Notes under the pieces: model-generated
Told to the model about the DNA's origin: nothing
Seen by the model: only the letters and a program-made list of their open reading frames with translations
The model's database searches: none
In this document: one piece after another, positions 6,530 through 52,835 of the stretch
Numbering within the stretch: position 1 is the stretch's first letter
Layout: each line of letters opens with the position of its first letter
Position numbers and translations under genes: made by a program
From: Negaprion brevirostris
Taxonomy: Eukaryota
Length of the DNA: 64,000 nucleotides
Direction: 5' to 3'
Assembly (NCBI GenBank): GCA_030324005.1
Contig: JARDVH010000084.1
Location: 22,031,423 to 22,095,422 of the forward strand

Positions 6530-6718
6530 AGGAACAGCTGCCTCATGGATTCCCCACCATTGACATGGGCCCACAGCTGAAGGTGGTGGAACGGACCCGC
6601 ACTGCAACAATGCTCTGTGCTGCCAGTGGGAATCCAGACCCTGAAATCACATGGTTTAAGGACTTCCTGCCAGTGGACACTAGCAACAGCAACGGACGAA
6701 TTAAACAACTCCGATCAG
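6530..6718 (+). CDS. PTPRF: Exon, Ig2 N-terminal half ([63 protein letters not shown])
   Basis: ttttaacAG acceptor, AG|GTAAGA donor, 189 nt, phase 1-1; near-identical to LAR-RPTP Ig2. Confidence 0.96.
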
Positions 6719-18527: not shown

Positions 18528-20835
18528 AAAAAATTCATTCCAGGGGTCCAGTCTGGGCCAGCATTGAAATTTCTTATATATGCTAAATCATTTACCTCAA
18601 AAACCCTCTCACCCTTTGTAGAATCATGGTATTTCTTCTGTGTGTTCTGTTTTGCCTCCCCACCAAATTTGGGAATATTAAATCAAGTCTAGTCTGAAGA
18701 CATCTTGCCATGAGCAACTCGGTGGGAGTCATGTCTGTAGTTGCATGGGGCATTGTTCTGTATGGCAGTAGGAAACGGGTCGGTTTAAGTCATAAAGATG
18801 CAGAAGATTGTTTCATCATGGCCTACTTAAATATTTGGTTAGCCTTTTAGCTAATGCATTTGAGGTCAAGTGATAGGGTGCTGTTAACACAAGCTTTGTG
18901 CCACTAGCTCGCGTAAAGTGTTGAACTTCCTCCTCAGTGAATGCAGTCCTTTTATCAGAGGCCAGTATCTTGGGTAACCCATGGGTGGCAAATGTTTGCT
19001 GCAGTTTATCTATAATTTCCAGGGAGGTGGTAGCCTTCATGTCATGTACGTCTATCCACTTAGCATGAGCATCATTAAGGATCAGGAACATAGTGTCCAT
19101 GAAATGACCCACAAAGTATACGTGGAGACATGCCCAAGGCTTACCTGGTTATTCCCAGGGGTACAACAGAGTAAACTTTACTCTGCTTGACACTGGTTAC
19201 AATGTTTGACCAGGACATCGATATCCTTGTCAATCCAGGGCCAACTCTTGTAACTTAGTGGCAACATTTTCATTTCTGAGGTGCACACAGTGCAATTCTT
19301 GCAACAGCATCCTTGCAGGAACAGGGAAAACTATGCTAATTACCCATAACAGAACTCGATCCTTTCAAAATAACTCACATTTTCTGAGACAAAATGGTCA
19401 AAATTGCATGAACTTATTGTAATGGAAACTCTGAAGGACTATACATTTGCCCTTAGACAGTGAGGGATTTTTTGGATCCATACTTGTTGTGTTGAAGCAG
19501 GTATCGTATACCAGAAGTTGAGGATGAGGATGATTTCTTTTGGCACCAGTGGTGGTGAAATTGTCTATGGCAAAGGAAGCTGACTTAATGCATCTGCCTT
19601 GCAATATGGGTGCCAGGCTCATGTTGGAATGCGTAATTGTAGGCCACTAGGAGCAAAGGCCATTGTTGGATCCTAGCTGACACATTGGGCAGAATGGCCT
19701 TGTCCTCTGAATAAGCCCACAAGTGGTATATGATTGGTAACAATGTGATGTCCGTAGACGAATTGACAAAACATTTTCATTCTGTAAATAATGGCCAAAC
19801 CTTCCTTTTCTATTTGAGAATAGACTATCTCAGCATCAGAGTGTTCTAGAAGCATAAACAATACTTCTCTCCACACCATCTTCCATTTTGTGGAGCAGTA
19901 CTGCTCCTATCCCACAGGGTGAAGCATTGCAGGTCAGAACTATTTCATTCAAGGGATCAAAATGAACTAAAAGGTTTGATGACAGCAATCCTAATTTATT
20001 TGTTCAAAGGCTTCTTTTTGAGATTCGCTCGAATACTACCCTGCACTTTCTAAGAAACTTGTACTAGCAATGTGATAAGACTGGGGATGATTTGGCCATA
20101 ATAATTCATCATGCCTAAAAAAGATTTTAGTTCTGATATGTTTCTGGGTGCTGGAGTTTCTTTGATTGCCTTAATCCTTCCCTCTGTAGGATGAAGTCCC
20201 TGTGTGTCAACTTAAATCCAAGTGAAGTGACTTTGTGAGCTTGAAATCTTTTGCCTTATTCCTGCTTTTTTTAAATCTCTGTAGGACTTCCTCAAGATTT
20301 GCTAAATATTCTTCCTCAGAATCTCCTACAATTGACATGTTGTCTAAATAGACCAACACCATGGGAACATCCCTTTCACAAGGTTTCCAATGTCTGCTGG
20401 AATATCGTGTGCATGCTGAAAATACTCCGAATGGCACTGGGTATATTGAAATAAGCCTCTATGGGTGTTGATTGTTATGACTTCCCTTGATGCTTTGTTA
20501 AGCTCCATCTGCTGGTAGGCTTGGCTCATGTCAAGCTTTGCACAAGTCAAAACATCCCAGTTAATTTGGCATATCTGTCTTCAATTCTAGGTATTGGGTA
20601 CCAATCCAGTTTGGCAGCTTTATTAATTGTCATCATATAATTGCCACAGATTCTGTCAGTCCCATCTGGCATAACCATGGATACAATGGGGGCAGCCCAC
20701 TCTGGGAACTGCACAGGCTTAATTATTATTCATATGTCTTCCAGCTGCTTGAACTCAGTTTCTATTTCTTCATGTAAAGGTAGGATACTGGACAAGCTCT
20801 GAAGAACTTGGGTGTTGCCTGGTGCTGTTGTTGTA

Positions 20836-22640
20836 CACAGAACAGTACAGCACAGAAACAAGCCCTTCGGCCCACCAAGCATGCGCTGATTATGTTGTTT
20901 TACTTAGACCAACTGCCCATTTCGCTCTATATCCTGTCTGTTATGTGCCTATCCAGATAAACCATAAATGTCGCTAACATATCTGCCTCAACCGCCTCGA
21001 TTGGCAGAGCGTTCCAGGCTCCCACTTATCCTCTTGTAAAAAGACTTGCCCTGCACATCGATCTTGAACATTTCTCCCCTTACCTTGAGCTTGTCCCCCC
21101 CACCCTATTATTTCATAAACTTCTATCAGGTCCCCCCGCAGCCTCTGCCTTTCCAGGGAGAACAATCCCAGTTTATTCAATCTCTCCTCATAGTTAATAC
21201 CCTCTGTACCAGCCTTTTCTGCACTCCCTCCTAGGCCAGCACGTCCTTCTGGTACTGTGGTGACCAGATTTGAACACAGTATTCCAAATGTGGCCGAACA
21301 AATGTTTTATGTAATTGTAAATAATTTGCCAACTTTCATAGCTGATGTCCCAGCTGATGACGTATGCTTTCTTCAACACGTTCTCCATCATTGCTGCCAG
21401 TTTTGAGGATCTGTAGACCTGTACTGTCAGATTTGTGTGTCTATGCTCCTGGTGGTTCTGCCATTTATTTTATAACTGAATTGGATCCACCAAAATGCAT
21501 CACCTCACATTTGTCCAAACTAAATTCCATCTGTCATTTCTCCGCCTAATTTCCCAGCCTATCTAAATATCCTGCTATATCCTCTGACAATCTTCATCAC
21601 TATCCACAACTCCAGCAATCTTAGTATCATCTGCAAATTTGCTAATCCGACCAGTTGTTTTCTGCCAAGTCATTTATATATATTACAAACAACAGAAGTT
21701 CCAGCACTGATCTCTGTGGAACACTACGAGTTACAGACCTCCATTCAGAAAACACTTTCCCACCACTACCCTCTGTCTTCAATGGCCAAGCCAGTTCTGA
21801 ATCCATCTAGCTAGTTCACCCTTGATCCTGTGTGATTTAATCTTTTGTACCAACCTACCATGAGGGACTTTGTCAGATGCTTTACGAAAGTCCATGTGGA
21901 CAACATGTGCAGTCCTTCCCTCATCAATCATTTTGGTCACGTACTCAAAAAACTCAAAATCAAATTAGTGAGACATGACCTCCCTCATACAAAAACCATG
22001 CTGTCTGTCGCTAATAAGACCATTCAGTTCCAAATGTATATAGATCCTATCCCTAAGAACCTTCTCCAATAATTTTACTATAACTAATCTATAATTACCC
22101 AGGTTATTCTTGCTACATTTCTTAAATAGTGGGACAACATTGGCTATCCTCCACTTCTCTGGGTCCTCACCTGTGGCCAATGAGGAAACAAAGATTTCTG
22201 TTAGAGACTCAGCAATCTCCTCGTTTATCTGTCTGGGATAGATGCCATCTGGATCTAGGGATTTGTCTACCTTAATGCTTTTTAATACACCAACACTTCC
22301 TCCCTCATACTGGTGACTTGCTCTAGAGGGTCTACATACCCCTCCAGTACACTATCAATCAACATGTCCCTCTCCTTTGTGAATACCAATGCAAAGTACT
22401 CATTAAGGATCTCACTCACTTCCTTTGGTTCCACACATAATTTCTCTCCTTTGTCCTTGAGTGGACCAACTCTTTCTCTAGCTACTCCCTTGTTGTGAAT
22501 ATATGCATAAAATGCCTTGGGATTTTCCTTAATTCTGCCTGCCAAGGACATTTTGTGACCCCATTTTCCCCCCCAACACCTCTGTTTGATATCTTTTATA
22601 TTCTCCCTATATTCTTCAATGCTTCATCTGTTTGTCCCCA
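20836..22640 (-). mobile_element. 5'-truncated CR1/HER1-like LINE nested in the Gypsy pol
   Basis: minus ORF fragments IKENPKAFYAYI, PEKWRIANVVPLFKK, LGLFSLERQRLRGDLIEVY; CR1-type 3' tail near 20840. Confidence 0.88.
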
Positions 22641-24692: not shown

Positions 24693-24799
24693 CCATGCTT
24701 TTATGTTAAATCCTTATCTATCAATAGTTTTAAAGAGTCTCACATGGCATGGTGTGTCCTGTTTAATTCTGTTTTCTGTCTCTCAGTTGAACTTCTCAG

Positions 24800-24808
24800 A
24801 ATCCTTTG
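24800..24808 (+). CDS. PTPRF: 9-nt microexon meA3 (encodes ESF)
   Basis: pyrimidine tract ...cttctcAG|AATCCTTTG|GTAAGT; phase 1-1; same position and size as PTPRD meA3 (ESI) and PTPRS ETF; 553 nt upstream of meA6. Confidence 0.78.
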
Positions 24809-25361
24809 GTAAGTGCTTGGTGTTCAGACTACAGTATGCATAAAAGCAGTGGTGCATGACATTCTTCTACTAACTGAGGCATACCCTTACCATGTCTAAT
24901 ATCTAGGCTACGTGTCACAGTGTAAAAACTCATAATAAACCTTGACCAAATGATACATCCCTCTTGCTGTCCAGGAAAAGGTTTAAAATCTGATGCAATG
25001 GTTGACATGGTGTTTAAGTAAAAAGGATGAAAGAATATGAACCTTTTTCCCTAATATTCTGCCTGCAACGCAGTGCTGTCTGTGTGATTTACTCGCTGAG
25101 GACTGATTGTTAACCCCGAACTTTTACAAGTCCAGGCACTTACATGGATGCTGCACTGCTGAGGACAGCTTTACTAACCTTCCTAAGGAATTGCTCTGAC
25201 TTGTTACTTTGCATCAGCCTTTTCTGTTGCTTAAAAAGAAATATATATATATATTATATATAATAATCTAATTCTTTTTTCTTTTGGTTTTCTTTTTTTT
25301 TCTTTCTCTCCTGTACTAATGCTTCTCTTTAATCTTATTTGCATTCAAATTACCTCACCAG

Positions 25362-25379
25362 GTGGTACACCAATCAGAG
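25362..25379 (+). CDS. PTPRF: 18-nt microexon meA6 (encodes GGTPIR)
   Basis: long T-rich tract, TACTAAT branch-like motif, TGC at 25340, accAG|GTGGTACACCAATCAGAG|GTAAGA; peptide matches the known meA6. Confidence 0.93.
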
Positions 25380-33258: not shown

Positions 33259-33369
33259 GAGCCTTGCAAATTGAGAACAGTGAGGAATCTGACCAGGGCA
33301 AATATGAATGCGTATCAACTAACAGCGCTGGAACACGTTACTCTGCTCCAGCCAACTTGTACGTCAGAG
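33259..33369 (+). CDS. PTPRF: Exon, Ig2 C-terminal half ([37 protein letters not shown])
   Basis: ttatacAG acceptor, AG|GTAGGA donor, 111 nt, phase 1-1. Confidence 0.96.
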
Positions 33370-44065: not shown

Positions 44066-44077
44066 ATCAGCAAGAAG
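44066..44077 (+). CDS. PTPRF: 12-nt microexon meB (encodes DQQE), Ig2-Ig3 linker
   Basis: pyrimidine-rich tract with TGC, ctctcAG|ATCAGCAAGAAG|GTTGGT; phase 1-1; size and position of meB (ELRE in PTPRD/PTPRS, DQRE in PTPRF as I recall). Confidence 0.85.
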
Positions 44078-51512: not shown

Positions 51513-51782
51513 TGCGCCGAGTTCCCCCTCGGTTCTCTATCCCACCCACTAGCCATGAAGTGATGCCAGGGGGCAGCGTTAACCTCACCTGTGTAGCTGT
51601 GGGGTCACCCATGCCCTATGTGAAATGGGTGACTGAAGCAGTAGAACTCACTTCAGAAGAGGACATGCCTATTGGACGGAATGTTCTGGAGCTGGTTAAC
51701 ATTAAAGAATCTAAGGGCTACACGTGTGTTGCCATGTCTTCACTGGGTGTTATTGAGGCAACGGCACAAATAACAGTTAAAG
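51513..51782 (+). CDS. PTPRF: Exon, Ig3 domain ([12 protein letters not shown]...EATAQITVK)
   Basis: cttttcAG acceptor, AAG|GTAAGT donor, 270 nt, phase 1-1, both Ig cysteines present. Confidence 0.96.
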
Positions 51783-52253: not shown

Positions 52254-52835
52254 CTTTACCAAAGCCACCTACAATGACAAGCGTTACAGAGACAACTGCT
52301 ACCAGTGTTACACTGACATGGGAATCAGGAAATAGTGAAATGATACCATACTATGTGATTCAGTATAAACCAAAATCCTCTGATGGAGCTTTCGAAGAGG
52401 TGGATGGAGTCGCCACCACACGATACAGTATTGGGGGTCTCAGCCCATACTCGGAATATGAATTCCGAATCATTGCAGTAAACAATATAGGCCGAGGCCC
52501 TCCCAGTGAAATAGTCGAAACCCGGACAGGCGAGCAGGCTCCATCCAGCCCACCTTTAAAAGTTCAGGCACGCATGCTGAGTGCTAGCACAATGTTAATC
52601 CAGTGGGAGGAGCCAGAAGAGCCAAATGGACAAATTCGGGGTTATCGGGTTTATTACACTACAGATTCTCGACTTCCCCTGAATATGTGGTACCTACATA
52701 ACTTGGATGACAGTCGTCTAACAACCATCGGTAGCTTAATAACTGACACCACGTACAGCATCCGAGTGTTGGCATTCACTTCGGTGGGGGATGGACCAAC
52801 ATCTGAAATTATACAAGTTAAAACAAAACAAGGAG
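52254..52835 (+). CDS. PTPRF: Exon, FNIII-1 and FNIII-2 (ALPKPP...IQVKTKQG)
   Basis: atcctAG acceptor, GAG|GTGAGT donor, 582 nt open frame, phase 1-1. Confidence 0.96.

What the first reader, a model, noticed from the sequence alone, without database searches (positions are those of the whole stretch)
24800..24808. A PTPRF-type gene retains the 9-nt meA3 microexon (ESF)
Seen: AG|AATCCTTTG|GTAAGT after a pyrimidine tract, phase 1-1, about 0.55 kb upstream of meA6. Known: meA and meB inserts form the splice code that controls binding of LAR-RPTPs to IL1RAPL1, IL-1RAcP, Slitrks, TrkC and SALMs. PTPRD has ESI+GGTPIR and PTPRS has ETF+ESTPIR, while mammalian PTPRF is described, as I recall, with only the 6-aa meA. 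Inference: the pre-duplication gene had both meA parts, and this cartilaginous-fish LAR kept the full A9/A6/A3 repertoire. ESF is intermediate between ESI and ETF.
Basis: partly seen in the sequence, partly recalled or inferred. Interest (0 to 1): 0.72.

Follow-up and report, generated by a model that had tools for sequence, protein, structure and literature searches.

The report
Shark LAR keeps ancestral nine-base exon
A shark's LAR (PTPRF) synapse-adhesion gene carries a nine-base stretch between splice signals that is letter for letter the same in its two sister genes, so it likely still makes a three-amino-acid insert that human LAR is reported to lack.

Summary
Observation confirmed: AG|AATCCTTTG|GTAAGT at 24800-24808, phase 1-1, 553 nt before meA6. 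The splice signals alone are not beyond chance. The conservation is: the 17-mer occurs exactly 3 times in the 2.69-Gb genome, once in the same Ig2 intron of each LAR-RPTP paralog, although fourfold sites between paralogs are only 30-39% identical. All three copies also keep a downstream TGCATG...ACTAAC pair. The gene is PTPRF by tree, best hits and a KDM4 neighbour. ESF is better read as the ancestral meA3 than as an intermediate: all three shark paralogs and bichir/teleost PTPRD have it. Not shown: inclusion in mRNA. Four RNA contigs gave only the meA-less join (uninformative). None of 233 readable PTPRF proteins has ESF, and in four species whose PTPRD models carry ESF (17 of 45) PTPRF has 0 of 28. 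A PTPRF-only upstream AG may weaken the acceptor. Verdict: a real, selected, probably minor microexon; the 'full A9/A6/A3 repertoire' is likely but unproven. New variant of a known kind.

The parts
6530..6718 (+). Constitutive exon, first part of Ig2 (…RIKQLRS), phase-1 donor upstream of meA
   Evidence: covered and spliced at both ends in 4 of 4 contigs
24785..24786 (+). Extra AG 13 nt upstream of the meA3 acceptor, only in PTPRF; its use would give a 22-nt frameshifting exon
24800..24808 (+). meA3 microexon AATCCTTTG (ESF), phase 1-1
   Evidence: identical exon and splice sites in both paralogs
24853..24858 (+). TGCATG (RBFOX-type motif, name recalled) at +45; at +59 and +69 in the two paralogs
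24869..24874 (+). ACTAAC (QKI-type motif, name recalled) at +61; at +76 and +85 in the two paralogs
   Evidence: pair found behind 1 of 943 donor-like sites, this one
25362..25379 (+). meA6 microexon (GGTPIR), with UGC at -22 in all three paralogs
   Evidence: same 18 letters as zebrafish ptprfa meA (PMC12626420 supplement)
33259..33369 (+). Constitutive exon, second part of Ig2 (GALQIE…NLYVR)
   Evidence: its first letters follow exon 6530-6718 directly in 4 of 4 contigs
44066..44077 (+). meB microexon, here coding DQQE instead of DQRE
51513..51782 (+). Ig3 exon
52254..52835 (+). FN1-FN2 exon used for orthology (ends inferred from phase and from the paralogous exon)

Best explanation
This is the meA3 homologue in a shark PTPRF (LAR) gene, identical to the 9-nt exon of its PTPRD and PTPRS paralogs, and it is likely still spliced into a minority of transcripts, where it would add ESF to the Ig2 loop alone (A3) or before GGTPIR (A9). 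Shown: sequence, frame, identity across the three paralogs, conserved downstream motif pair, PTPRF orthology, and that both meA exons can be skipped. Inferred: long purifying selection, hence use; an ancestral two-part meA (ESF + GGTPIR) in the gene that gave rise to all three paralogs; later loss or silencing of meA3 in PTPRF on the way to mammals; separate control of the two parts (downstream RBFOX/QKI-type motifs for meA3, SRRM3/4-type UGC for meA6). By analogy with mouse PTPRD, A9 would raise affinity for IL1RAPL1 about fivefold over A6 when meB is present, and A3 alone would not bind it.
For: 17-mer found 3 times genome-wide, only in the homologous intron of the three paralogs. Fourfold sites between paralogs are near saturation: 31 of 87, 23 of 77, 32 of 83 identical; nine neutral letters would stay identical with p about 1e-4 to 2e-5 per pair. 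TGCATG then ACTAAC lies behind meA3 in 3 of 3 paralogs and behind 1 of 943 donor-like sites in the background set, that one being this exon. The same exon appears as ESF or ESFGGTPIR in 17 of 130 readable chondrichthyan PTPRD database models. Orthology: FN1-2 exon 95-96% to named shark PTPRF, 74% to shark PTPRD; trees put the window among chondrichthyan PTPRF (100/98) and F against D at 100/100 and 96/92 with the third paralog included; a KDM4 gene follows on the same strand about 157 kb past the window. Affinities: PMC4423211 Table 2, A9B+ 0.15 uM, A6B+ 0.81 uM, A3 not detectable.
Against: No transcript with the exon was seen. 0 of 119 readable chondrichthyan and 0 of 114 other PTPRF proteins carry ESF. 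In the four species whose PTPRD models contain ESF (17 of 45), PTPRF has 0 of 28, of which 12 have GGTPIR; the X1 isoforms of S. canicula, A. radiata, R. longicauda and C. punctatum have GGTPIR only. A 40-residue ESFGGTPIR query gave 119 carriers among its top 120, all PTPRD, where a PTPRF form should have scored 98-100% (only cluster representatives are searched). The PTPRF acceptor has a 12-14 nt insertion with a competing AG and lacks the nearer ACTAAY of the two paralogs. Its flanks are less conserved (z 2.0-2.3 upstream, 0.3-2.2 downstream) than D versus S (3.8, 6.9), though meB shows the same order. No second chondrichthyan PTPRF intron could be read.
Confidence: 0.68

Rival explanations
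1. The exon is a true meA3 homologue but is now vestigial or nearly silent in PTPRF: kept by selection until recently, now rarely included, an early stage of the loss completed in mammals.
For: 0 of 28 PTPRF models against 17 of 45 PTPRD models in the same four annotated species; PTPRF-only insertion with an upstream AG; loss of the nearer ACTAAY; weaker flank conservation; no PTPRF+ESF among the top 120.
Against: Exon, both splice sites and both downstream motifs are intact. Annotation of 9-nt exons is patchy even for PTPRD: none among the listed Stegostoma, C. punctatum, Rhinoraja, Hemitrygon or S. torazame models. PTPRF has an 18-kb upstream intron and no known protein to guide annotation (inference).
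Confidence: 0.21
2. The site works mainly as a poison exon: the upstream AG gives a 22-nt exon that shifts the frame and would send the mRNA to decay, tuning LAR levels.
For: The upstream AG follows the stronger pyrimidine tract (0.80 against 0.70); both 22-nt forms reach a stop in the next exon.
Against: The extra AG is absent from both paralogs; the nine coding letters are the conserved part; no read supports the 22-nt form.
Confidence: 0.07
3. The identity among paralogs comes from gene conversion or an assembly error, not from selection.
For: All three synonymous positions of the 9-mer are identical, while meA6 differs at synonymous sites between paralogs; the assembly has gaps and one misplaced PTPRD exon.
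Against: The copies lie on three different contigs, and the identity breaks within a few letters on either side.
Confidence: 0.03
4. A chance AG-9nt-GT motif in a long intron.
For: 20 comparable motifs on both strands of this intron.
Confidence: 0.01

Closest known systems
Mammalian PTPRD meA3 (ESI) / meA6 (GGTPIR) / meA9
   Same: Two separate phase-1 microexons of 9 and 18 nt in the Ig2 loop, same order; ESIGGTPIR aligns residue for residue with ESFGGTPIR (PDB chains; PMC4423211, PMC8711739 passages).
   Different: Here the host is PTPRF; third residue F instead of I; the upstream intron is 18 kb (1.1 kb in this shark's PTPRD); inclusion not shown.
Fish PTPRD meA9 (ESFGGTPIR) in database models of sharks, rays, bichir and teleosts
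   Same: Identical peptide; the shark PTPRD exon has the same nine letters and splice sites.
   Different: Annotated only for PTPRD among the proteins seen, never for PTPRF.
Mammalian and zebrafish PTPRF meA (18 nt; GGSPIR or GGTPIR)
   Same: Same gene and same meA6; the zebrafish ptprfa exon equals the window's meA6 in all 18 letters.
   Different: Described as a single 6-residue insert (PMC6078854, PMC4881023; treated as one event in PMC10883964); no 9-nt part reported in what I read.
Human PTPRS meA (ETFESTPIR)
   Same: Nine-residue, two-part insert (PMC6078854; meA1/meA2 forms in PMC10883964).
   Different: This shark's third paralog has ESF + GGTPIR, so the human ETF and EST look derived.

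Membership tests
PTPRF (LAR) ortholog | Groups with vertebrate PTPRF, not PTPRD, in a tree | tested here: met
   Ig3-FN2, 23 rows, 100/100; no PTPRS rows; Ig2-Ig3, 20 rows with this genome's other two paralogs, 96/92; unrooted
PTPRF (LAR) ortholog | Closer to PTPRF than to PTPRS and PTPRD of mammals | tested here: met
   FN1-2 best-domain scores against PDB chains: PTPRF 304-307 bits, PTPRD 278-282, PTPRS 271. Ig3 could not be tested: no PTPRF chain with Ig3 was listed
PTPRF (LAR) ortholog | Tandem KDM4A neighbour | tested here: met
   Best matches of a bird KDM4A lie on the same contig and strand just downstream; the other two paralogs face KDM4 genes tail to tail. The human layout is recalled; one search found no paper stating it
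LAR-RPTP meA3 microexon | 9 nt, phase 1-1, between the Ig2 exon and meA6, frame-preserving | tested here: met
LAR-RPTP meA3 microexon | Homologous to PTPRD meA3 | tested here: met
   Identical exon and splice sites and shared downstream motifs; PTPRD models carry ESF
LAR-RPTP meA3 microexon | Can be skipped | tested here: met
   4 of 4 contigs of close relatives join the flanking exons directly
LAR-RPTP meA3 microexon | Included in PTPRF mRNA | tested here: inconclusive
   Not seen in 4 contigs of unknown tissue, which also lack meA6; absent from 233 readable PTPRF proteins
LAR-RPTP meA3 microexon | Changes IL1RAPL1 binding | not testable with these tools
   Known for mouse PTPRD only (PMC4423211 Table 2)
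SRRM3/4-type neural microexon | UGC near the acceptor | tested here: not met
   meA3: none within 40 nt in PTPRF and the third paralog, one at -34 in PTPRD; meA6: UGC at -22 in all three. The motif is present in only 74-79% of SRRM3/4 targets (bioRxiv 2024.09.17.613571 passage), so control by SRRM3/4 is not excluded
RBFOX/QKI-regulated cassette exon | Conserved downstream UGCAUG and ACUAAY | tested here: met
   3 of 3 paralogs; the assignment of the motifs to these proteins is recalled
RBFOX/QKI-regulated cassette exon | Binding and response to the factors | not testable with these tools
   Needs a minigene or knock-down
Poison exon | Used acceptor gives a premature stop | tested here: inconclusive
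   The 22-nt form gives a stop in silico; its use is unknown and the AG is not shared with the paralogs

The most novel reading that the evidence does not exclude
The jawed-vertebrate ancestor had three LAR-RPTPs with one identical two-part meA code (ESF + GGTPIR), the parts switched separately (RBFOX/QKI-type elements for A3, SRRM3/4 for A6). Shark LAR still makes A9 and is a strong IL1RAPL1 receptor, and in this shark its meB has lost the Slitrk-binding arginine. The ligand preferences of the mammalian paralogs then arose mainly by losing or silencing microexons after duplication, and the conserved TGCATG-ACTAAC pair is the unidentified control element of meA3.
Probability: 0.3. Interest if true: 0.7.

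Novelty: new variant of a known kind. Interest (0 to 1): 0.5.

Why it matters
The meA code is the textbook case of a splice code for synaptic partner choice, and LAR is described as the paralog with only the short meA. A selected meA3 in shark PTPRF settles the direction: meA3 was lost from LAR, not gained by PTPRD/PTPRS, and ESFGGTPIR is the likely ancestral insert. The motif pair shared by three paralogs with saturated synonymous sites gives a concrete element to mutate, where a 2026 paper (PMC13080001, abstract passage) calls the regulation of these microexons largely unknown. It also shows that standard annotation may miss 9-nt exons. It does not reveal a new mechanism.

Tried and rejected
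RNA: no holder is on record as RNA (14 holders guessed as RNA). Four runs laid on the upstream exon each gave one contig with the meA-less join and neither microexon; tissue unknown and contigs drop minor forms, so this says nothing on meA3. The microexon region itself was not covered with reads, so inclusion stays open. Fourth paralog: an FN1-2 exon on contig C59 looked like one but is 99% identical to shark PTPRD and has no other LAR exon in the 200 kb read, 39.5 kb of it N; rejected. Splice-signal strength as proof: rejected. Ig3 against PDB does not separate the paralogs. In one search one ESF carrier (P0338) was scored 'F' only because it lacks Ig3; by name and Ig2 residues it is PTPRD. 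Shark PTPRS models were not retrieved, so that annotation control is missing. Literature: searches found no report of a 9-nt meA in PTPRF, no occurrence of ESFGGTPIR, and no paper holding all of Ptprd, microexon, Rbfox and Quaking. Supplements of PMC7821500, PMC13281805 and PMC12868881 gave nothing relevant; one supplement of PMC10883964 is a picture and unread; the 2011 J Neurosci cDNA survey was not held. Earlier findings of this scan: none. No fold or complex was predicted, as no natural PTPRF A9 sequence was on hand.

Full report
Observation. The window holds exons of a LAR-type receptor phosphatase from the first half of Ig2 to FN4 on the + strand. The Ig2 intron runs from 6719 to 33258. 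At 24800-24808 the sequence reads ttctcag|AATCCTTTG|gtaagt, and meA6 (GGTPIR) follows at 25362-25379. Read from the window's own exons, the A3, A6 and A9 forms keep the frame and insert ESF, GGTPIR or ESFGGTPIR after RIKQLRS. The signals by themselves are ordinary: 13 similar motifs lie on the + strand and 7 on the - strand of this intron.

More than chance. The genome holds two other genes with this Ig2 exon pair, on contigs C42 and C150. Both carry the same nine letters between AG and GTAAGT, upstream of an 18-nt GGTPIR exon. The 17-mer occurs exactly three times in 2.69 Gb, at these three sites; the reversed control occurs zero times. Composition predicts 0.63 copies genome-wide and about 3e-6 in one such intron. 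Neutral sequence between the paralogs is close to saturated: fourfold sites agree in 31 of 87, 23 of 77 and 32 of 83 cases. Behind the exon all three genes keep TGCATG followed by ACTAAC (+45/+61 in the window, +59/+76 and +69/+85 in the paralogs). In the background set of 943 donor-like sites the pair is found once, behind this exon. The exon and its control elements have therefore been under selection for most of the time since the paralogs split (inference).

Which gene. The FN1-2 exon is 95-96% identical to named shark PTPRF proteins and 74% to shark PTPRD. Against PDB chains it scores best with PTPRF. A tree of Ig3-FN2 (23 rows, no PTPRS) places the window among chondrichthyan PTPRF at 100/98 with F against D at 100/100. 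A tree of Ig2-Ig3 with the two other paralogs gives 96/92; C42 is identical to catshark PTPRD and C150 is a separate branch. C150 is taken as PTPRS by elimination and by its EETDQG and AGVRYS residues. A KDM4 gene, the best match of a bird KDM4A, starts about 157 kb past the window on the same strand, while C42 and C150 face KDM4 genes tail to tail; that this mirrors the human layout is recalled. The organism is a shark by these similarities.

What is ancestral. Human meA is GGSPIR in LAR, ETFESTPIR in PTPRS and ESIGGTPIR in PTPRD (PMC6078854, passages). In this shark all three genes encode ESF + GGTPIR. ESFGGTPIR is also the PTPRD insert in shark, ray, bichir and teleost database models. The simplest reading is that ESFGGTPIR is ancestral, ESI and ETF are one-residue changes, and PTPRF lost meA3 later. 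Zebrafish ptprfa and ptprfb and mouse Ptprf are listed with an 18-nt meA only (PMC12626420 supplement rows; a selected list, so not proof of absence). I could not read a bony-vertebrate PTPRF intron, so the date of the loss is open.

Is it used? Not shown. Four runs from close relatives (three studies) each gave one contig that joins the upstream exon straight to the 33259 exon. This shows the gene is transcribed and both microexons can be skipped, but the contigs lack even meA6 and say nothing on meA3. Database evidence leans against abundant use. Of 519 proteins gathered, 241 are PTPRF by Ig3-FN2 score; 233 have a readable site, 58 have GGTPIR, none has ESF. Chondrichthyan PTPRD has ESF in 17 of 130 (the split into groups is by identity threshold). 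In the four species whose PTPRD models have ESF (17 of 45), PTPRF has 0 of 28 (isoforms are not independent and not all were seen). A 40-residue ESFGGTPIR query returned 119 carriers in its top 120, all PTPRD, but only cluster representatives are searched. Against over-reading this: ESF is missing from the listed PTPRD models of several other sharks and rays too, and these are other species than the window's. The PTPRF acceptor also differs from its paralogs by a 12-14 nt insertion with a second AG; using it would give a 22-nt exon and a stop in the next exon. PTPRF flanks are less conserved than the D-S pair, as they also are for meB.

How it most likely works. Shown: a frame-preserving cassette in the Ig2 loop with an exact-consensus donor. 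Inferred: inclusion in a minority of transcripts, helped by the downstream motif pair (RBFOX- and QKI-type, names recalled), whereas meA6 has the UGC at -22 typical of SRRM3/4 targets and meA3 lacks a near UGC in two of three genes (bioRxiv 2024.09.17.613571, passages, notes UGC is not strictly needed). Separate control fits reports that the two parts vary separately in mouse PTPRD (PMC10883964 and PMC8711739, passages). From mouse PTPRD, A9B+ binds IL1RAPL1 at 0.15 uM, A6B+ at 0.81 uM and A3 not detectably, IL-1RAcP cares little which meA is present, and the contact residues are mostly conserved among the three receptors (PMC4423211, passages and Table 2). So A9 would make shark LAR a better IL1RAPL1 partner. 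meA lies away from the Slitrk, TrkC and SALM5 interfaces (PMC6078854, PMC4437028, passages).

Novelty. My searches found no report of a 9-nt meA in any PTPRF, within a library that lacks most subscription papers. Microexon atlases that include elephant shark (recalled, not seen) may list it. Papers were read as passages or supplement rows only, none in full. It is a new variant of a known kind: a known exon in a paralog described without it.

Verdict. Real and selected (about 0.95); still spliced in at a useful level (about 0.68); interest 0.5.

Noticed in passing
window 44066-44077: The meB exon, recognised by strongly conserved flanks, codes DQQE; all 16 PTPRF database proteins with meB have DQRE and 140 PTPRD ones ELRE. 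The third arginine contacts Slitrk2 and R236E abolishes binding (PMC4437028). It could be a lineage change, an allele or an assembly error.
   Followed up: partly
L010:1550-1640; L011:1386-1490: The PTPRD and PTPRS meA3 share a longer downstream block with a second, nearer ACTAAY that PTPRF lacks.
   Followed up: partly
L011/L012 (G000:C150), meA exons: The third paralog (likely PTPRS) encodes ESF + GGTPIR, not the human ETF + ESTPIR, so the human PTPRS insert looks derived in both parts.
   Followed up: partly
G000:C59:80149074-80149655 (L016): An isolated FN1-2 exon, 99% identical to shark PTPRD, with no other LAR exon in the 200 kb read around it; the PTPRD gene on C42 gave no match for this exon. 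Probably an assembly misplacement.
   Followed up: yes
G000:C84:22278893-22280181: Inside the KDM4 locus two adjacent matches cover residues 543-968 of the query without introns (53-62% identity, stops inside), besides separate exons for the same residues; possibly a processed partial copy or an assembly artefact.
   Followed up: no
protein names: Many shark PTPRD isoforms are named 'phosphatase S' in the database, and some PTPRF isoforms 'S-like'; names alone are unreliable for paralog assignment here.
   Followed up: partly
window, several introns (e.g. 1702-2244, 18816-19906, 21779-22623): Broken ORFs that look like reverse-transcriptase or integrase pieces of retroelements (resemblance recalled, not tested).
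   Followed up: no
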